From positions 1 through 55,115 of the forward strand of contig CAZSIU010000002.1 of NCBI GenBank assembly GCA_964607225.1: DNA of 55,115 nt. Reading direction: 5' to 3'. Shown here piece after piece: positions 4,833 to 17,923 of this stretch; the first letter of the stretch is position 1, and each line of letters opens with the position of its first letter. The stretch is from an uncultured Methanosarcinales archaeon. Lineage in GTDB: Archaea > Nanobdellota > Nanobdellia > Woesearchaeales > GW2011-AR4. The translations under genes and the position numbers were made by a program. The notes below the pieces were generated by a model. It searched no databases and was not told the origin of the DNA. It worked only from the letters and a program-made list of their open reading frames with translations.

Positions 4833-6428
4833 ATGAAAATCAGCATGAAAAATATTGAGATCATTCTGATTGTTATATTGTACTTATCCGCACTTTATAT
4901 CTGGACATTGCCTATTCAAAAAAATAAGCTGCCGTTTGGGGATGTAGATGCGAGCTCCCACTTTGTAATCGGGGATTATATGGCTACATATGACAAATCA
5001 ATAGCCAAAGTCCCTTATCCTGTTTTTTCCAGGTACGGAGCCCAAAATAGCGCTTTTCCTGGCTATTTTTGGTATCCTCCCCAGTACTGGACTAATACCG
5101 GAATTGCACAAATACTTGGTGGAGAAAGAATAATACCAGTGTTCATCTTTGTTGCAATTTTTAGTTCCATGATAGTAATTTCTTCGTACTACTTAATAAG
5201 AAATTTATTCGGCTTTTGGACTGCTTTTTTATCAAGCTTTTTACTGATTTTTTCTGTAAGGGACTATATGGTTTACTTATGGGGCCAATGGCCGCAATCT
5301 TTATCTTTCGCTTTTACCCCCTTGGTTTTGTACAGCTTTTATCGCTATTATCAGAATTATAAAGAAAATAAAAATAAGGCAATCTATCTTTACATTTTGT
5401 CCTTGTTTTTAGCAGCACAATTTTTTTTCCATCCTCAGGGATTGATAGCCTCTATCTCAGCTTTGATTGCATTTAATCTGATATTATTGGTTAAATATAG
5501 AAAGATTCCATTTAACTTTAAGCATGCATTCATTGCATTTATTATTTTCACTATCATTTCTTCGCTATTTGCACCTTTTAATGTTAAGGACTTCTTGAAT
5601 AGCCTATTGCCAAGCGGACAAAAAGAAGATAAAAGCATAGAAATTGACAAATTGTTTAAATGGTACCAGGGCATAAAAAATGATCCTGGATTACCTGATT
5701 TTTACTTTACTTACAATAGAACTCACGGCTCCTTGAATGGAGGTGTATTATCCTGGTGGACTTTACCATTGCTACTTTTAGGGTTGTTTGTGCTAATGTC
5801 CAGAAGGAATGACAAGGACTTGTTGCTGCTGAGCTGGCTTGTATCCTTTTATTTCCTAACCAGATTAGTGATTTTTGGTGTTGGGGAAAGGGATATAAGA
5901 ATGTTTGCTTATGAAGCTCATGTATTTTACCCTATAATAGCAATCGGGGCAATGTCCATAAACTCTTTTATTCCATTAAAAAATGCTGAAAAATATGGAA
6001 AGTATATTCTTGTCGCTTTATTCTTAATACTAGCAGTATCCATAAATGGAAAATCTGCATATGAAACTCTGGGTGGAATGCAGTACTCTGTTGGCAGGAT
6101 AAACCCTGCACAATATGAAGCAGCAGAATGGATACGAAATAATTTGCCCCAAAATGCCGATATATATGATTTTGGAACATTAGGATACCAATACTATGGG
6201 GGTAAAGTAAAATGGCTAGGTGTTTTATCACAAAGGCATTTTGTTGTTGAGGATAGGGAAATCAACCAGACAGACTATGTTTTTGTTGATTATAGCGATG
6301 TGTTGCTGCTAAAGAGCCAAGAATACGCCAATCTTATTCAAAATTTTGAAACTAGTTTCCAAAATCTGAGACCCGTCTATAATAACAATAATATTAGGAT
6401 ATATGAAGTATCGGGTATGAAAATCTGA
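4833..6428 (+). CDS. Polytopic GT-C-like membrane protein, paralog of 16241-17923
   Basis: 531 aa, more than 10 TM helices plus a soluble C-terminal domain. First-loop acidic motif PFGDVDASSHF. LIFS...WGQWPQSLS and C-terminal EWIRNNLPQNADIY are shared with the 560-aa protein. Confidence 0.5.
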   Translation: MKISMKNIEIILIVILYLSALYIWTLPIQKNKLPFGDVDASSHFVIGDYMATYDKSIAKVPYPVFSRYGAQNSAFPGYFWYPPQYWTNTGIAQILGGERIIPVFIFVAIFSSMIVISSYYLIRNLFGFWTAFLSSFLLIFSVRDYMVYLWGQWPQSLSFAFTPLVLYSFYRYYQNYKENKNKAIYLYILSLFLAAQFFFHPQGLIASISALIAFNLILLVKYRKIPFNFKHAFIAFIIFTIISSLFAPFNVKDFLNSLLPSGQKEDKSIEIDKLFKWYQGIKNDPGLPDFYFTYNRTHGSLNGGVLSWWTLPLLLLGLFVLMSRRNDKDLLLLSWLVSFYFLTRLVIFGVGERDIRMFAYEAHVFYPIIAIGAMSINSFIPLKNAEKYGKYILVALFLILAVSINGKSAYETLGGMQYSVGRINPAQYEAAEWIRNNLPQNADIYDFGTLGYQYYGGKVKWLGVLSQRHFVVEDREINQTDYVFVDYSDVLLLKSQEYANLIQNFETSFQNLRPVYNNNNIRIYEVSGMKI

Positions 6429-6751
6429 TGAAAATAAAAGAAACTTCAATCTTTTATGGATTGCTGCTAATTATAATTATTTTTGGCTCCTTGATTGTAT
6501 TTGGACTTTCCGGAATGAGGACGTTGCTGGGGCTCATATTTGTAATTTTCCTGCCATTTTACCTAATCCTTAAAAATTTTGATCTTAGCCAGACTGAGAG
6601 AGTTGTATTTTCCATGTTTATCAGCTTAATGCTATTCCCATCATTAGTTTATTGGCTGGGGTTTATCATACCTTTTAGAATTTCTATTTTTGTGATATTT
6701 ATATTGCTGATTGCCGTTGCTTTTCTTCTTAATAAATATTACAAAAAATAA
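6428..6751 (+). CDS. Small 3-4-TM membrane protein, partner of the preceding GT-C-like gene; paralog of 15898-16284
   Basis: 107 aa. Its start overlaps the upstream stop (ATGA-type). It shares FLPFYLIL / TER / FIS / YWLG motifs with the 128-aa protein. From memory it resembles the N-terminal membrane module of archaeal DUF1616-type proteins (tentative). Confidence 0.55.
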   Translation: MKIKETSIFYGLLLIIIIFGSLIVFGLSGMRTLLGLIFVIFLPFYLILKNFDLSQTERVVFSMFISLMLFPSLVYWLGFIIPFRISIFVIFILLIAVAFLLNKYYKK

Positions 6752-7198
6752 AAACAAATGTTTCCTGGACTTTTGACACTAAGAACAGCAATGTTATTAA
6801 TAGCACTTATACAATTGTATTGCAGCCAAACGAGGAAATCAAAATGGTTTTTATTATTACTTCTTAAAAACTAGTGCTTTTCAGTATCTCAAAACCACCC
6901 CAACTGCAATAGCAATTTGAAAACATGTTTATATACATTTTGATTTTGGGACTGCAACATCAGCTATATATTGAAAAAATTTATTCTCTATATTTTATTC
7001 ACTATTTTGCCATAGTTTAGGCATTGAGAGATCTTTCAGCATTTTTTCAGAAATGCTTAAATAGGTGCTGTTGTCCATTCCTCTAAAATAAAAGGGGGTG
7101 GTTAAAATAATAGGTTATGTTAGCGTTCCTATTTTAATTTCTTTTAGACTTAATAATATAAAACCATTCTTTCAAAATAAAACCAAGAGGTGTTCTTT

Positions 7199-15896: not shown

Positions 15897-15897
15897 C

Positions 15898-16284
15898 CTA
15901 GAGTTGCTTTCTTAAGCTTATAGCAGCACCAATAAAAATCAATACTGTCGGCAATACGCTCATATGATATTTTATATTTAATCCAATTAGGCCAAGGTAG
16001 TAGCTGGATATGCCTATAACAGATGCTGATATAAAAATCCCGATTATGAACCTCTCCAGGAACTCGAGCTTTTCCTTCCAATAAAGCATTATTAAATATC
16101 CAGGAAAAACAAAGAGCCAGAATAAAGACAAAACAGTCCTTATTAAAACTATTAAATTTTCTTTAAAAAAAGCAATTTTAAATGCAATTATTGATAATAA
16201 AAATAATATTCCAATATACTGAAATTCTTTTTTTACTAAGCTAAAAACTTCTTTCTTCAACGCAATCAGCTCCTGGATTGTCAT
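15898..16284 (-). CDS. Small 4-TM membrane protein, partner of the upstream GT-C-like gene; paralog of 6428-6751
   Basis: 128 aa. Overlaps the 3-prime end of 16241-17923 by 44 nt. Motifs FVFPGYLIM, LERF, IFIS and YYLGLIG parallel the 107-aa protein. Confidence 0.6.
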   Translation of the reverse strand: MTIQELIALKKEVFSLVKKEFQYIGILFLLSIIAFKIAFFKENLIVLIRTVLSLFWLFVFPGYLIMLYWKEKLEFLERFIIGIFISASVIGISSYYLGLIGLNIKYHMSVLPTVLIFIGAAISLRKQL

Positions 16285-17923
16285 TTTTTAAAATAAAAAC
16301 AACTTCATTTTGGAAAACCATGCTAACATAGTCTTTTTTGAGCATTTCAGATGCTATTAATAAATTATACTGCGCAAGCGCCTGCTGCCTTGATGCCTTA
16401 TCAAAAACATAGTAATCAAACTTGCAAATGTCATGGACTCCTTCAAAGAATTCTGCTGGTTTTGATTTGCCAGCTTTCTCAAACCGGAAGAAGCTTTCCT
16501 TGGTTACCAAGCCCCCTCCAGAGTCTCCTGGCAACTCCGTATAATAGTGCCTCTTTATCCTTCTTTCCTGCAATGAATTTACAAATTCGTTTGCCCACAC
16601 CTGATAATGAACCCTTTTTGCATTTCTTAATAAGGCATCTTGGCTGTATATGTCCCCATAAAAGAAATATATTAGTGCATCATTTTCCGTATTTCGACTA
16701 ATCCACTTAAGGGCTTCCCAGTGGTATTTGTCCATCACCCCTTGGTTAGTTGTTATATCAGTATATGGTATGGAAGGTATAGCCTGAACATCTGTTTGCT
16801 TGATTATCGGAAACTTTATGATTCCACTAAGTAAAAATACGAGAATTACAAAAATGGAGGATGTTAAAACAAAATTCCATTTCCTGATTAAAAATTTAAA
16901 AATAATATAGAGTCCTAGTCCTAGAAATGCGGATAAGTAAATTGGCCATAAAAATCTTGCCTGAAATGACCTAAAGCCGAAGCCTACATAGTTTAAGAAT
17001 CCAATAAGCAGCATTGCAAAAGCCAAAATCAAAGATATATGAAGGTTCTTTAATTTTAATACAGAGAATATTATTCCTATTGCAATTGGCAGCAATAATA
17101 AGCCAAAACCTGCAATATATAGCACAGGAGTCCCAAAGGATACAGGCTCTGCATTGAAAGAATATGGCTGATCTTTTGCCCATGTATTCTGGAAAATTAC
17201 CAAGTAATAGAATGAAATCAAAAAAGAAACAGCAAAAGCCGCCATTATTGCCTTAATATCCTGCTTCTTTATACCTTTAAATATAAATCTTATCCCAAAA
17301 AATAATATCAAAAATATTATGGCAAAAATTGTTGCTGTGGCATGAATCAAAGTTATTGATGAAAGGGCTATCGCTATTATAATGAACGATTTGTCCAAAT
17401 CCATTCTCATGATACTCCAGAAAAAGAAAATCAGAAATGACTGGGATAGGATAGACGGCCAATGCCCCCATACAAAACCTATGGTTATCGGACTGGAAAA
17501 AATTAGCATGGATAAAGGCGCCGAGAGCAAAGCAACTGCTTTGCTATAATCTCTTATTATAAAATACATTACCAAGCTGCTTAATATTGGAAAAATAGTT
17601 ACCAAGAAGTACATAGTGTCATAGGTTTCCATTCCGGACAGATATGATAAAATAACAGCAAGATGATAGGAAACCGGCGGATACCTTCCAACAACATTTT
17701 CAAGGCCCAAAGAAATGTAATTTGCTTCATACCTAAAGTTCCCCATATCCTTAATTGCTTCCGCTCTTACCTGATGCTGGAAAGCGTCAGAGGCACCATA
17801 GCCAAAGGGGAAATCATGCTTTATCTTATGGTCAAATAGATTTCCAGGGCCTAAAAATAAAATAACGCTAAAAAATAGCACTAAAAGAACCTTTTCTATG
17901 TCAACTTTTATTTTTACCACCAC
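16241..17923 (-). CDS. Polytopic GT-C-like membrane protein, paralog of 4833-6428
   Basis: 560 aa with a GTG start. First loop PFGYGASDAF, then YPP, LIFS...WGHWPSILS, and C-terminal KWISRNTENDALIY. Soluble C-terminal domain. Confidence 0.55.
   Translation of the reverse strand: MVVKIKVDIEKVLLVLFFSVILFLGPGNLFDHKIKHDFPFGYGASDAFQHQVRAEAIKDMGNFRYEANYISLGLENVVGRYPPVSYHLAVILSYLSGMETYDTMYFLVTIFPILSSLVMYFIIRDYSKAVALLSAPLSMLIFSSPITIGFVWGHWPSILSQSFLIFFFWSIMRMDLDKSFIIIAIALSSITLIHATATIFAIIFLILFFGIRFIFKGIKKQDIKAIMAAFAVSFLISFYYLVIFQNTWAKDQPYSFNAEPVSFGTPVLYIAGFGLLLLPIAIGIIFSVLKLKNLHISLILAFAMLLIGFLNYVGFGFRSFQARFLWPIYLSAFLGLGLYIIFKFLIRKWNFVLTSSIFVILVFLLSGIIKFPIIKQTDVQAIPSIPYTDITTNQGVMDKYHWEALKWISRNTENDALIYFFYGDIYSQDALLRNAKRVHYQVWANEFVNSLQERRIKRHYYTELPGDSGGGLVTKESFFRFEKAGKSKPAEFFEGVHDICKFDYYVFDKASRQQALAQYNLLIASEMLKKDYVSMVFQNEVVFILKNDNPGADCVEERSF

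What the first reader, a model, noticed from the sequence alone, without database searches (positions are those of the whole stretch)
4833..17923. Sequon-saturated surface-protein operon bracketed by an inverted pair of paralogous 'GT-C + mini membrane protein' cassettes
Seven co-directional ORFs (7199-15896) are translationally coupled, with ATGA-type overlaps at 7807, 10294, 10846 and 13626. Five of the seven begin with a signal peptide or a pilin-like basic-plus-hydrophobic N-terminus; the exceptions are the 84-aa blade (no signal peptide) and the 3-TM protein. The four largest proteins carry dozens of N-x-S/T sequons by hand count: about 24, 24, 30 and 38. On each side sits the same two-gene unit in mirror orientation. 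Each unit is a 531/560-aa polytopic protein (4833-6428 + ; 16241-17923 -) followed by an overlapping 107/128-aa 3-4-TM protein (6428-6751 + ; 15898-16284 -). The large proteins share PFG-x-(D/G)ASxxF in the first loop, YPP, LIFS...WG(Q/H)WP(Q/S)xLS, and a C-terminal (E/K)WI(R/S)xN...(D/A)xIY motif. The small proteins share F-x-P-x-YLI, (T/L)ER, FIS and Y(W/Y)LG. My hypothesis is a self-contained surface-display module in which dedicated, non-AglB GT-C enzymes with a small obligate partner glycosylate the proteins encoded between them. No WWDYG oligosaccharyltransferase motif is present in any of them, so if they act on protein they would be a new class.
Basis: partly seen in the sequence, partly recalled or inferred. 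Interest (0 to 1): 0.8.

Follow-up and report, generated by a model that had tools for sequence, protein, structure and literature searches.

The report
Paired GT-C glycosyltransferases with small partners
Two anciently duplicated membrane glycosyltransferases, each followed by its own small four-helix membrane protein, form a gene unit conserved across Woesearchaeota (DPANN archaea), whereas the sugar-site-rich surface-protein operon between them in this genome is a lineage-specific insertion.

Summary
All ORFs, the ATGA overlaps, the shared motifs and the sequon counts (24, 26, 30, 38; z = 5.2-7.7 against shuffles) are real. The two large proteins are true but ancient paralogs (profile-profile E = 2.5e-23), and so are the two small ones (E = 1e-9).

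An AlphaFold model of the 531-aa protein (pLDDT 87) is a GT-C fold. Its best structural matches are STT3/AglB/PglB, then ArnT, ALG12, DPY19 and Pmt4. An invariant first-loop Asp (D39, aligned with D46 in the paralog) is present.

In 30 non-redundant Woesearchaeota relatives the small gene always abuts the GT-C gene. In 24 the second cassette converges on the first, and in 13 of these the 3' ends overlap or lie within 29 nt. No relative has secreted genes between the cassettes. The gap is a variable slot that holds toxin-antitoxin-like genes, enzymes or a GT2. The operon here carries recombination scars.

The best reading is a multi-component extracytoplasmic glycosylation system. A dolichyl-phosphate-sugar synthase (GT2) supplies the donor. 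The small 4-TM proteins act as a flippase or escort subunit, as in arnT-arnE-arnF. The GT-C enzymes elaborate the surface glycan. Sequon enrichment points to a canonical AglB encoded elsewhere. I rate it a new variant of a known kind, of moderate interest.

The parts
377..1879 (-). 500-aa GT-C (PMT/PMT_2 type), part of the conserved island
   Evidence: Pfam PMT_2 2.4e-8 and PMT 1.8e-7. Syntenic in L001, L004, L014, L015 and L033.
1876..2880 (-). GT4 cytoplasmic glycosyltransferase
   Evidence: Pfam Glycos_transf_1 7.7e-37. Conserved neighbour.
3023..3739 (-). 238-aa GT2 without a TM segment; candidate dolichyl-phosphate-sugar synthase that supplies the donor
   Evidence: Pfam Glycos_transf_2 1.8e-29. 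Best NCBIfam matches are AglJ 3e-22, PgfS, Dol-P-hexose transferase and ArnC, all below the equivalog cut-offs. No TM segment. Conserved next to the cassettes, and inside the gap in L032.
3741..4751 (-). GT9 (heptosyltransferase family)
   Evidence: Pfam Glyco_transf_9 2.9e-14. Conserved directly upstream of GT-C A in most relatives.
4833..6428 (+). GT-C A, 531 aa: about 11 TM helices, a long first external loop with [D/E]-V-D39...H43, and a C-terminal external alpha/beta domain
   Evidence: Pfam DUF6541 2.3e-8 and PMT_2 1.1e-5. AF2 pLDDT 86.9, pTM 0.88. Foldseek matches STT3/AglB/PglB at about 1e-9 and ArnT at 2e-7. D39 is invariant in 27 homologues.
6428..6751 (+). smA, 107-aa 4-TM partner of GT-C A
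   Evidence: Present with a start codon within -26 to +10 nt of the GT-C A stop in 30/30 relatives. P43 and Y75 invariant, E57 nearly so. No Pfam or NCBIfam family.
6754..6860 (+). Remnant (about 34 codons) of the 3' end of a 756-aa-type gene; left junction scar of the insertion
   Evidence: Direct repeat with 15702-15781, 70% over 80 nt. blastx E = 2e-6 to the L006 756-like protein.
7199..7810 (+). 203-aa secreted protein (4 sequons, not enriched)
   Evidence: N-terminal hydrophobic segment, z = 0.9. SD-like GAGGTG upstream.
7807..9321 (+). 504-aa secreted protein, 24 sequons
   Evidence: z = 5.2. Homologue upstream of the cassettes in L023.
9344..10297 (+). 317-aa protein with a pilin-like N-terminus (KKG-ELSF...), 26 sequons
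   Evidence: z = 7.7. The N-terminal sequence was read directly.
10294..10548 (+). 84-aa ORF: duplicated FG-GAP fragment of the 927-aa gene, probably a remnant
   Evidence: 87% aa identity to residues 549-610 of the 927-aa protein. 76% nt identity over 190 nt.
10502..10849 (+). 103-115-aa 3-4-TM protein coupled to the 927-aa gene
   Evidence: Hydropathy. ATGA overlap. A gene in the same position (130 aa, 3 TM, directly upstream of the 927-like gene) exists in L006, though phmmer found no sequence similarity to it.
10846..13629 (+). 927-aa secreted FG-GAP beta-propeller protein, 30 sequons
   Evidence: Pfam FG-GAP_3 1.2e-14. z = 6.9. A 1580-aa homologue lies directly upstream of GT-C A in L006.
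13626..15896 (+). 756-aa secreted PKD-repeat protein, 38 sequons
   Evidence: Pfam PKD 4.5e-8. z = 6.4. A homologue lies directly upstream of GT-C B in L006.
15898..16284 (-). smB, 128-aa 4-TM partner of GT-C B, with a conserved cytoplasmic N-terminal helix
   Evidence: AF2 pLDDT 87, helices 3-38, 44-69, 75-99 and 104-126. P61, E77, R78 and G98 invariant. More than 500 homologues, those listed about 117-157 aa and most of them about 120 aa. No PDB fold match.
16241..17923 (-). GT-C B, 560 aa, ancient paralog of GT-C A
   Evidence: hhalign against the A family 99.5%, E = 2.5e-23. D46 and two C-terminal Cys invariant. DUF6541 or PMT_2 hits in 4 and 2 of 21 members.
17901..20150 (-). 749-aa YfhO/PTPS_related-type polytopic protein (further GT-C candidate)
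   Evidence: Pfam PTPS_related 2.6e-5. Conserved next to GT-C B in many relatives.
20333..22903 (+). 856-aa, about 15-TM protein with no family assignment; conserved island member
   Evidence: No Pfam, NCBIfam or PDB hit. Syntenic in L001, L010 and L015.

Best explanation
The region is the core of a conserved Woesearchaeota (DPANN) cell-surface glycosylation island.

GT-C A (4833-6428) and GT-C B (16241-17923) are ancient paralogs of a GT-C-fold family (DUF6541/PMT_2-like; ArnT/PMT/STT3-type architecture). I infer that they work on the outer face of the membrane. Each would use its invariant first-loop Asp (D39 / D46) to transfer a sugar from a dolichyl-phosphate-sugar donor. That donor would be made on the cytoplasmic face by the neighbouring TM-less GT2 (3023-3739). 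The acceptor would be the cell-surface glycan, most likely glycans on surface proteins or their lipid-linked precursor, as AglS does in Haloferax and ALG3/9/12 do in eukaryotes.

Each GT-C is made together with its own paralogous 4-TM protein (smA, smB). I infer that this protein flips or escorts the lipid-linked donor to its GT-C. That would make it the functional counterpart of ArnE/ArnF, GtrA/GtcA or Rv3789, built from an unrelated small-protein family.

The ancestral arrangement is the two cassettes converging tail to tail. The seven-gene operon for secreted proteins is a lineage-specific insertion into the variable slot between them. Its dense N-x-S/T sequons are the ordinary signature of archaeal surface proteins that are N-glycosylated by a canonical AglB encoded elsewhere.

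Shown: the fold, the paralogy, the conserved coupling, the synteny and the insertion scars.
Inferred: the donor, the acceptor, the role of the small proteins and the involvement of AglB.
For: - GT-C fold: AF2 pLDDT 86.9. Foldseek probability 1.0 to STT3/AglB/PglB, ArnT, ALG12, DPY19, ALG9, AftA and Pmt4. Pfam DUF6541 and PMT_2.
- Invariant EL1 Asp and His in both families, aligned with each other.
- Paralogy of the large proteins and of the small proteins.
- Coupling of GT-C and small gene in 30/30 relatives and in the distant member P0323.
- The GT2 resembles AglJ, Dol-P-hexose transferase, PgfS and ArnC. It has no TM segment. It stays with the cassettes, and lies inside the gap in L032.
- E. 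coli arnT(550)-arnE(111)-arnF(128) has the same gene order, sizes and overlapping junctions.
- Three-component systems are defined as a polyprenyl-P-sugar synthase, a small flippase and a GT-C (PMC11127046, read; PMC8035078 appeared only as a title and abstract hit).
- The best conserved smB residues (P61-G62, E77-R78) sit at the predicted cytoplasmic membrane interface. That fits capture of the donor head-group.
- Insertion: cassettes abut in 13 relatives, other cargo fills the gap in 11, and none has secreted genes there. Scars at 6754-6860 and 10325-10514.
- The rest of the window encodes nucleotide-sugar pathways.
- A cultivated DPANN archaeon has aglB and surface proteins with 13-52 predicted N-glycosites (10.1101/2023.10.27.564410).
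Against: - No experiment exists, and no donor or acceptor has been identified.
- The small proteins match no flippase family: no GtrA, SMR or EamA hit at E <= 10 in 45 members; no PDB fold match, including EmrE; hhalign against ArnE/ArnF gave nothing. That last test also failed for ArnT against GT-C A, so it is insensitive.
- One flippase paralog per GT-C is unusual. In Gtr and Arn systems a single flippase serves the pathway. Strict 1:1 coupling fits a stoichiometric subunit equally well.
- The best fold matches are oligosaccharyltransferases rather than ArnT, although the margin is small (TMq 0.55-0.61 against 0.54).
- No AglB was seen in the 55-kb window or in the 10 kb upstream of it, so its presence in this genome is assumed.
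- In L006 each cassette directly follows a gene for a sequon-rich protein. That hints at a closer link to these proteins than 'general surface glycan'.
Confidence: 0.5

Rival explanations
1. GT-C A/smA and GT-C B/smB are two-subunit protein glycosyltransferases of a new, WWDYG-less class. They directly glycosylate the secreted proteins encoded next to them.
For: - The best structural matches of GT-C A are the catalytic subunits of oligosaccharyltransferases (STT3, AglB, PglB; E about 1e-9, TMq up to 0.61).
- A [D/E]-x-D motif in EL1 resembles that of PglB and STT3.
- Sequon-rich secreted genes abut the cassettes in the window and in L006, in two different arrangements.
- Other sequon-rich genes lie within 10 kb in L007, L008, L010 and L012, and a homologue of the 504-aa protein lies upstream of the cassettes in L023.
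Against: - The bracketed arrangement is unique to this lineage. Most of the 30 relatives have no sequon-rich gene within 10 kb.
- The N-x-S/T requirement is read by WWDYG and DK/MI motifs, which these proteins lack.
- ArnT, ALG12, DPY19 and Pmt4 match almost as well.
- Sequence families are PMT_2 and DUF6541, not STT3.
- The island is dominated by glycan-building enzymes.
Confidence: 0.12
2. GT-C A and GT-C B form a heterodimeric protein O-glycosyltransferase, like yeast Pmt1-Pmt2. It modifies Ser/Thr-rich surface proteins, and the small proteins are structural subunits.
For: - Pfam PMT_2 hits, and NCBI names the family 'glycosyltransferase family 39'.
- The two paralogs co-occur and converge in 24/30 relatives.
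- The neighbouring secreted proteins are 15-21% Ser+Thr.
- Pmt4 is among the fold matches.
Against: - There is no MIR domain, and the Pfam PMT model matches neither protein.
- Six relatives have cassette A without B within 6.6-9.7 kb.
- Pmt4 ranks below the OSTs, ArnT and the ALG enzymes.
- A-B interaction could not be tested.
Confidence: 0.13
3. The small 4-TM proteins are not flippases. They are membrane anchors or activators for the TM-less GT2 (a DPM2/DPM3-like role). They bring donor synthesis to each GT-C.
For: - The GT2 is 238 aa with no TM segment.
- smB has a conserved charged cytoplasmic N-terminal helix (K11, E12, F14 and E20 nearly invariant) and a conserved cytoplasmic-face E77-R78.
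- In L032 the GT2 gene directly follows smB.
Against: - Translational coupling is with the GT-C genes, not the GT2. The GT2 is usually separated from them by GT9 and lies on the other strand.
- smA lacks the N-terminal helix.
- There is no similarity to DPM2/3 or to the TM domain of archaeal DPM synthase in PDB fold searches.
Confidence: 0.1
4. The island builds a non-protein surface glycopolymer or lipoglycan, as in mycobacterial arabinan/mannan or teichoic-acid glycosylation. The GT-C enzymes act on that polymer, and adjacency to the secreted proteins is coincidental.
For: - Up to five polytopic GT-C-like proteins stand in a row with GT4, GT9, GT2 and heptose/amino-sugar pathways.
- AftA, AftB and PimE are among the fold matches.
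- A YfhO-type protein is adjacent.
- The gap cargo in relatives is unrelated to secretion.
Against: - No such polymer is known in DPANN archaea. Their described surfaces are glycosylated S-layer-type proteins.
- No polymerase, chain-length regulator or ABC exporter genes were identified among the window ORFs that I scanned. Only part of the window was scanned.
Confidence: 0.15

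Closest known systems
E. coli arnT-arnE-arnF (GT83 GT-C plus heterodimeric small 4-TM Und-P-Ara4N flippase)
   Same: - A GT-C of about 550 aa is followed by overlapping genes for 111- and 128-aa 4-TM proteins. Here the sizes are 531/560 aa followed by 107/128 aa.
- The two small proteins are paralogs of each other.
- A GT2 lipid-phosphate-sugar synthase (ArnC-like) lies in the same cluster.
- ArnT is a significant fold match.
   Different: - There is no detectable sequence or fold similarity between smA/smB and ArnE/ArnF or other SMR proteins.
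- Here each small protein is tied to its own GT-C paralog on the opposite strand, rather than two small proteins following one GT-C.
- This is an archaeal system, so the carrier is presumably dolichol.
- The acceptor is unknown and is not lipid A.
Bacterial three-component glycosylation systems (GtrB/GtrA/Gtr*; CsbB/GtcA/YfhO; Rv3789 with Emb/Aft)
   Same: The logic is the same: a cytoplasmic polyprenyl-P-sugar synthase, a small membrane protein and an extracytoplasmic GT-C, all clustered (PMC11127046 read; PMC8035078 and PMC7389260 seen only as search hits). A YfhO-type protein is also adjacent.
   Different: - The small proteins are not GtrA-family members by sequence.
- The GT2 lacks the C-terminal TM helices of GtrB.
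- The GT-C/small-protein unit is duplicated and convergent.
- These systems have not been described in archaea.
STT3 / AglB / PglB oligosaccharyltransferases
   Same: These are the best structural matches of GT-C A (E about 1e-9, TMq 0.55-0.61). They share the acidic [D/E]-x-D in the first external loop, an odd number of TM helices and a C-terminal external domain.
   Different: - There is no WWDYG.
- The external domain is much smaller (about 110 aa).
- There is no Pfam STT3 match and no PDB sequence match.
- The proteins are about 530-560 aa, against about 640-870 aa for the matched OST chains.
Haloferax volcanii AglJ/AglS-type steps (Dol-P-sugar synthase plus Dol-P-mannose mannosyltransferase acting on protein-bound N-glycan); eukaryotic ALG3/9/12
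   Same: - A Dol-P-sugar synthase-like GT2 has AglJ as its best NCBIfam match.
- PMT_2-type GT-C enzymes are present.
- ALG12, ALG9 and ALG3 are significant fold matches.
- This role would explain GT-Cs without a sequon-reading motif sitting next to N-glycoprotein genes. My description of AglS rests on my own knowledge, not on a tool result.
   Different: - No sequence-level orthology was shown.
- As far as I know, AglS and the ALG enzymes have no dedicated small partner.
- The paralogous convergent pairing is specific to this lineage.
Pfam DUF6541 and DUF1616
   Same: - GT-C A passes the DUF6541 gathering score (33.2 against 29 bits). B-family members hit it weakly.
- 11 of 23 smB members weakly match the N-terminal 4-TM region of DUF1616, an archaeal membrane-protein family (best E = 0.0047).
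   Different: - The match covers only positions 194-408 of the 646-position DUF6541 profile.
- All DUF1616 matches are far below the gathering score, and smA members do not match it.
- Neither family has a known function. No paper mentions DUF6541, and one paper lists a DUF1616 glycoprotein.

Membership tests
GT-C fold glycosyltransferase superfamily | Polytopic membrane protein with the GT-C fold | tested here: met
   AF2 model pLDDT 86.9 and pTM 0.88, with about 11 TM helices. All 26 Foldseek hits at E <= 1e-3 are GT-C enzymes. GT-C B is assigned by profile homology to A.
GT-C fold glycosyltransferase superfamily | Conserved acidic catalytic residue in the first extracytoplasmic loop | tested here: met
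   D39 is invariant in 27 A-family sequences, with D/E at position 37. D46 is invariant in 21 B-family sequences. The two align with each other.
GT-C fold glycosyltransferase superfamily | Uses a lipid-phosphate-linked sugar donor | not testable with these tools
   Only context is available: an AglJ/ArnC-like GT2 lies in the conserved cluster.
Oligosaccharyltransferase STT3/AglB/PglB (GT66) | WWDYG motif in the C-terminal external domain | tested here: not met
   No W[WYF]D[YWFN]G occurs in any frame of the window. In the related loci the only match is one unrelated ORF in L017.
Oligosaccharyltransferase STT3/AglB/PglB (GT66) | Sequence membership (Pfam STT3) | tested here: not met
   No STT3 hit at E <= 0.1 for either protein or for the B family. 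No PDB sequence hits.
Oligosaccharyltransferase STT3/AglB/PglB (GT66) | Overall fold similarity to the catalytic subunit | tested here: met
   These are the top Foldseek matches, E = 1e-9 to 8e-7, TMq 0.55-0.61. ArnT and ALG12 score only slightly lower, so the result does not discriminate.
Protein O-mannosyltransferase (GT39, PMT) | Pfam PMT/PMT_2 match and a MIR domain in the large luminal loop | tested here: inconclusive
   PMT_2 matches exactly at the cut-off (26.1 bits) for A, and in 2/21 B members. No PMT (PF02366) or MIR hit was found. Pmt4 is fold match rank 26.
ArnT (GT83) with ArnE/ArnF | GT-C followed by genes for small 4-TM proteins | tested here: met
   The gene order, sizes and overlaps are the same as in E. 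coli arnT-arnE-arnF.
ArnT (GT83) with ArnE/ArnF | Small proteins belong to the SMR/DMT (EamA) superfamily | tested here: not met
   No SMR or EamA Pfam hit in 45 family members at E <= 10. hhalign against ArnE/ArnF gave probability < 1%. No EmrE-type fold hit. The hhalign test is weak, because ArnT against GT-C A also failed.
Three-component (Gtr-type) glycosylation system | Polyprenyl-phosphate sugar synthase (GT2) encoded with the GT-C | tested here: met
   The GT2 at 3023-3739 resembles AglJ, PgfS, Dol-P-hexose transferase and ArnC. It is syntenic in most relatives.
Three-component (Gtr-type) glycosylation system | GtrA-family small flippase | tested here: not met
   No GtrA (PF04138) hit in the smA or smB families. 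Flippase activity itself cannot be tested here.
Pfam DUF6541 | Score above the gathering threshold | tested here: met
   GT-C A scores 33.2 bits against a 29-bit cut-off. GT-C B scores 12.8 bits, below the cut-off, and is linked through profile homology to A.

The most novel reading that the evidence does not exclude
GT-C A/smA and GT-C B/smB are obligate two-subunit enzymes that found an undescribed archaeal class. One possibility is an OST-like protein glycosyltransferase that lacks WWDYG and directly modifies DPANN surface proteins. The other is a GT-C whose dedicated 4-TM subunit belongs to a new family of dolichyl-phosphate-sugar flippases or donor-delivery proteins, unrelated to GtrA, SMR, MATE or Wzx.
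Probability: 0.15. Interest if true: 0.8.

Novelty: new variant of a known kind. Interest (0 to 1): 0.42.

Why it matters
DPANN archaea live attached to host cells, and their glycosylated surface is thought to mediate that contact. Almost nothing is known about how that surface is built.

This work defines a conserved, unstudied unit: a GT-C enzyme plus a 4-TM partner, duplicated and convergent. The GT-C family has 431 representative clusters at E <= 1e-3. The small-protein family has more than 500 members. No paper mentions DUF6541.

If the small proteins prove to be lipid-linked-sugar flippases or donor-delivery subunits, they would add a new family to a class of proteins that is poorly defined in all domains of life. 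They would also give a handle on extracytoplasmic glycan elaboration in archaea.

The variable slot between the cassettes, and the recombination scars in the surface-protein operon, suggest a hot spot for surface variation.

Tried and rejected
- **Co-folding.** I built a paired, linker-fused alignment of GT-C A + smA (16 rows) for co-folding.
- **smB fold search.** The PDB search gave only noise (best E = 1.8).
- **ArnE/ArnF and ArnT.** hhalign of the smA/smB profiles against E. coli ArnE/ArnF, and of the GT-C A profile against ArnT, found nothing. The ArnT failure shows that this single-sequence test is too insensitive to exclude remote homology.
- **'Split gene' idea.** I asked whether the small protein equals an N-terminal extension found in longer relatives. 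Two smB members weakly hit DUF6541 positions 3-67. The 619-aa homologue P0333 has an extra 85 N-terminal residues and no downstream small gene. hhalign reproduces the by-eye alignment but at probability 0.3%. I keep this as a lead only.
- **DUF1616 link.** It is weak for smB and absent for smA. The literature gives no function.
- **PDB sequence searches.** Searches with GT-C A, with its profile, with the B profile, and with the 856-, 927- and 504-aa proteins gave nothing useful.
- **AglB.** I looked for it in the window, in the 10 kb upstream on the source contig and in the related loci. None was found. The look-up for the downstream flank failed.
- **RNA genes.** No tRNA or Rfam matches occur in the window.
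- **Assembly chimera.** I considered and rejected this explanation for the operon, because an independent assembly shows the same junction.

Full report

Yes. The ORF table reproduces every gene at the stated coordinates.

Junction sequences show several things:
- ATGA start/stop overlaps at 7807, 10294, 10846 and 13626.
- A 1-nt overlap (TGATG) between the 531-aa gene and the 107-aa gene.
- A 44-nt overlap between the 560-aa gene and the 128-aa gene.
- Only 1 nt between the converging stop codons of the 756-aa gene and the 128-aa gene.

Sequon counts (N-x-S/T, x not P) are 24, 26, 30 and 38 in the four large secreted proteins. Shuffles of each protein give 7.7-17.3, so z = 5.2-7.7. None of the other 47 window proteins tested comes near these counts: each has at most 6 sequons, and only two reach z of 2.0 and 3.6.

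Five of the seven operon products start with a hydrophobic segment.

There are two corrections. The 84-aa 'blade' is a duplicated fragment of the 927-aa gene (87% aa identity, 76% nt identity over 190 nt). Both small cassette proteins have four helices.

An independent assembly (SRR8863434) carries the same junction between the 531-aa gene and the 203- and 504-aa genes. The arrangement is therefore not a chimera.

**2. Are the two cassettes homologous?**

Yes, but anciently.
- Pairwise BLASTP is weak: large proteins E = 1e-5 over 94 aa, small proteins E = 2e-4.
- Family profiles built from relatives are decisive. GT-C A against GT-C B gives hhalign probability 99.5%, E = 2.5e-23 over 386 columns. 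smA against smB gives 96.5%, E = 1e-9.
- The profile alignment puts the invariant D39 and H43 of family A on the invariant D46 and H50 of family B.

**3. What are the large proteins?**

- Pfam assigns GT-C A to DUF6541 (above the gathering score) and to PMT_2 (at the cut-off). GT-C B and its relatives hit the same two families weakly.
- An AlphaFold2 model of GT-C A built on 27 homologues is confident (pLDDT 86.9, pTM 0.88). It has about 11 TM helices, a long first external loop and a C-terminal alpha/beta domain.
- All 26 Foldseek hits at E <= 1e-3 against the PDB are GT-C enzymes. STT3/AglB/PglB come first (E = 1e-9 to 8e-7, TMq 0.55-0.61). ArnT (2e-7, TMq 0.54), ALG12, DPY19, ALG9, AftA, ALG3 and Pmt4 follow.
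- There is no WWDYG in the window in any frame, no Pfam STT3 match, and no sequence match to any PDB chain.
- The family is large and confined to Woesearchaeota/Nanoarchaeota-type DPANN MAGs, as far as names are given: 79 clusters at 90% identity and 431 representatives at E <= 1e-3. NCBI labels members 'glycosyltransferase family 39' or 'DUF6541 family protein'.

**4. What are the small proteins?**

- smA and smB are members of one 4-TM family. smB alone has more than 500 homologues; those listed are about 117-157 aa, most of them about 120 aa.
- The smB model is confident (pLDDT 87; helices 3-38, 44-69, 75-99, 104-126).
- It has no structural relative in the PDB (best E = 1.8).
- No member matches GtrA, SMR/EamA or any other flippase family in Pfam.
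- The only recurrent weak signal is the N-terminal TM region of DUF1616, in 11 of 23 smB members (best E = 0.0047) and in no smA member.
- The best conserved residues (P61-G62 and E77-R78 in smB; P43, Y45 and E57 in smA) lie at the predicted cytoplasmic ends of helices 2 and 3.

**5. Synteny: the decisive test of the 'bracket' idea**

I fetched 30 non-redundant related loci and mapped the window's proteins onto them.

- (a) smA follows GT-C A in 30 of 30 loci, with a start codon within -26 to +10 nt of the GT-C stop. A distant member (P0323) also has an overlapping 114-aa gene.
- (b) smB + GT-C B converge on cassette A in 24 of 30 loci.
- (c) In 13 of these 24 the two small genes overlap at their 3' ends or lie within 29 nt of each other.
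- (d) In the other 11 the gap is 0.67-3.6 kb. It holds unrelated genes that are neither secreted nor sequon-enriched: toxin-antitoxin-like ORFs in L020, the GT2 in L032, and 300-590-aa soluble proteins elsewhere.
- (e) No relative has secreted genes between the cassettes.

The conserved object is therefore the convergent cassette pair, embedded in the order PMT_2-type GT-C, GT4, GT2, GT9, [A + smA], [smB + B], YfhO-type protein, 850-aa polytopic protein. The window's 9-kb operon is cargo in a variable slot.

Two scars support a recombinational origin. A 34-codon remnant of a 756-aa-type gene lies immediately after smA (6754-6860). It forms a direct repeat with 15702-15781. The second scar is the duplicated FG-GAP fragment.

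A weaker association does exist. In L006 (66% identity), a 1580-aa homologue of the 927-aa protein lies 15 nt upstream of GT-C A. A homologue of the 756-aa protein lies 2 nt upstream of GT-C B. Both are on the same strand as the cassette they precede. Sequon-rich genes occur within 10 kb in a minority of the other loci, which I judge to be about what a surface-gene-rich small genome would give by chance.

**6. Context**

- The 238-aa GT2 at 3023-3739 has no TM segment. It most resembles AglJ, PgfS, haloarchaeal Dol-P-hexose transferase and ArnC. These are all enzymes that load a sugar onto a polyprenyl phosphate.
- The rest of the window encodes nucleotide-sugar enzymes:
  - dehydratases/epimerases;
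  - a DegT aminotransferase;
  - a hexapeptide acyltransferase;
  - C-methyltransferases;
  - a radical-SAM enzyme;
  - a heptose-type set (SIS isomerase, PfkB kinase, cytidylyltransferase-phosphatase).
- Further upstream on the source contig lie a UDP-glucose dehydrogenase and a formyltransferase.

**7. Mechanism**

The best-supported reading is a multi-component extracytoplasmic glycosylation system of the kind defined in bacteria. Such a system has a lipid-phosphate-sugar synthase, a small membrane protein that brings the donor across the membrane, and a GT-C that transfers the sugar outside the cell (PMC11127046).

The closest architectural match is E. coli arnT(550 aa)-arnE(111)-arnF(128), with overlapping genes.

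Two features are new here. The small-protein family is unrelated to known flippases. The GT-C/small unit is duplicated, so each paralog keeps its own partner.

I infer that the enzymes add Dol-P-borne sugars to the surface glycan, either protein-bound or lipid-linked. The Asn-linkage to the dense sequons would be made by a canonical AglB encoded elsewhere. A cultivated DPANN archaeon has aglB and surface proteins with 13-52 predicted N-glycosites.

The fold, the paralogy, the coupling and the synteny are shown. The donor, the acceptor, flipping and AglB involvement are inferred.

**8. Rivals**

- A Pmt1/Pmt2-like heterodimer.
- Small proteins acting as anchors for the TM-less GT2.
- A non-protein glycopolymer pathway.

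None of these can be excluded without interface prediction or biochemistry.

**9. Verdict**

The system is a new variant of a known kind. It is interesting as an unstudied, widely conserved DPANN surface-glycosylation unit and as a possible new small-subunit or flippase family, but it is not categorically new.

Noticed in passing
window 10294-10548 and 12488-12677: The 84-aa ORF is a diverged copy (87% aa, 76% nt over 190 nt) of an internal FG-GAP segment of the 927-aa gene. It is probably a recombination remnant, not an independent 'blade' protein.
   Followed up: yes
window 6754-6860 and 15702-15781: A truncated remnant of about 34 codons from the 3' end of a 756-aa-type gene sits right after smA. 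It forms a direct repeat with the real 3' end of the 756-aa gene, so the two copies flank the inserted operon.
   Followed up: yes
L006 823-10080: In a 66%-identical relative, homologues of the 927- and 756-aa proteins lie outside the cassette pair. Each sits directly upstream of one cassette on the same strand (gaps of 15 and 2 nt). This is the opposite topology to the window.
   Followed up: partly
window 20333-22903: An 856-aa protein with about 15 TM segments and a large C-terminal region has no Pfam, NCBIfam or PDB match. It is conserved next to the YfhO-type gene in L001, L010 and L015, and may be a further unrecognised GT-C.
   Followed up: partly
window 9344-10297 (N-terminus); L006 158-460: The 317-aa protein starts (M/V)LKLLKNKKG-ELSFIALL... 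This looks like a class III (type IV pilin-like) signal peptide. A similar N-terminus (MLKLLRNKEGK...) occurs on a 100-aa ORF in L006.
   Followed up: no
window 10846-11900 (N-terminal ~330 aa of the 927-aa protein): His-rich motifs (HQHITKEA..., YWLGRVAHLLEDASVPAHMH) recall zinc-dependent phospholipase C / P1 nuclease domains. This rests on memory: Pfam and PDB sequence searches gave no hit.
   Followed up: partly
window 3741-4751, 26329-26859, 45969-47087, 52878-53852: A GT9 (heptosyltransferase family) occurs together with a SIS isomerase, a PfkB kinase and a cytidylyltransferase-phosphatase fusion. Together they look like a nucleotide-heptose pathway, which suggests a heptose-containing surface glycan.
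   Followed up: partly
L042 13793-15061 and 19452-20387 (source contig, upstream of the window): A UDP-glucose dehydrogenase and a formyltransferase (Formyl_trans_N/C) lie in the same island. Formyltransferases are unusual in archaea, and the set recalls the Arn (Ara4N) pathway enzymes.
   Followed up: no
L020 2973-4802; L032 5477-6193; L025, L027, L028-L031 gaps: The slot between the convergent cassettes holds different cargo in different lineages: RelE/ParE-like small ORFs, the Dol-P-sugar-synthase-like GT2, and soluble 300-590-aa proteins. It behaves as an insertion hot spot.
   Followed up: partly
L039 4001-5860 (P0333): A 619-aa family member has an extra 85-residue, 3-helix N-terminal extension and no small gene downstream. 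It may be a fusion or replacement of the small partner, but profile comparison was not significant.
   Followed up: partly
L007, L010, L012-L014, L016, L017, L019, L024, L025, L033 (record titles): Several related contigs are titled 'uncultured Methanosarcinales archaeon'. Their gene content and closest relatives are Woesearchaeota/Nanoarchaeota, so the titles are probably placeholder or wrong taxonomy.
   Followed up: no
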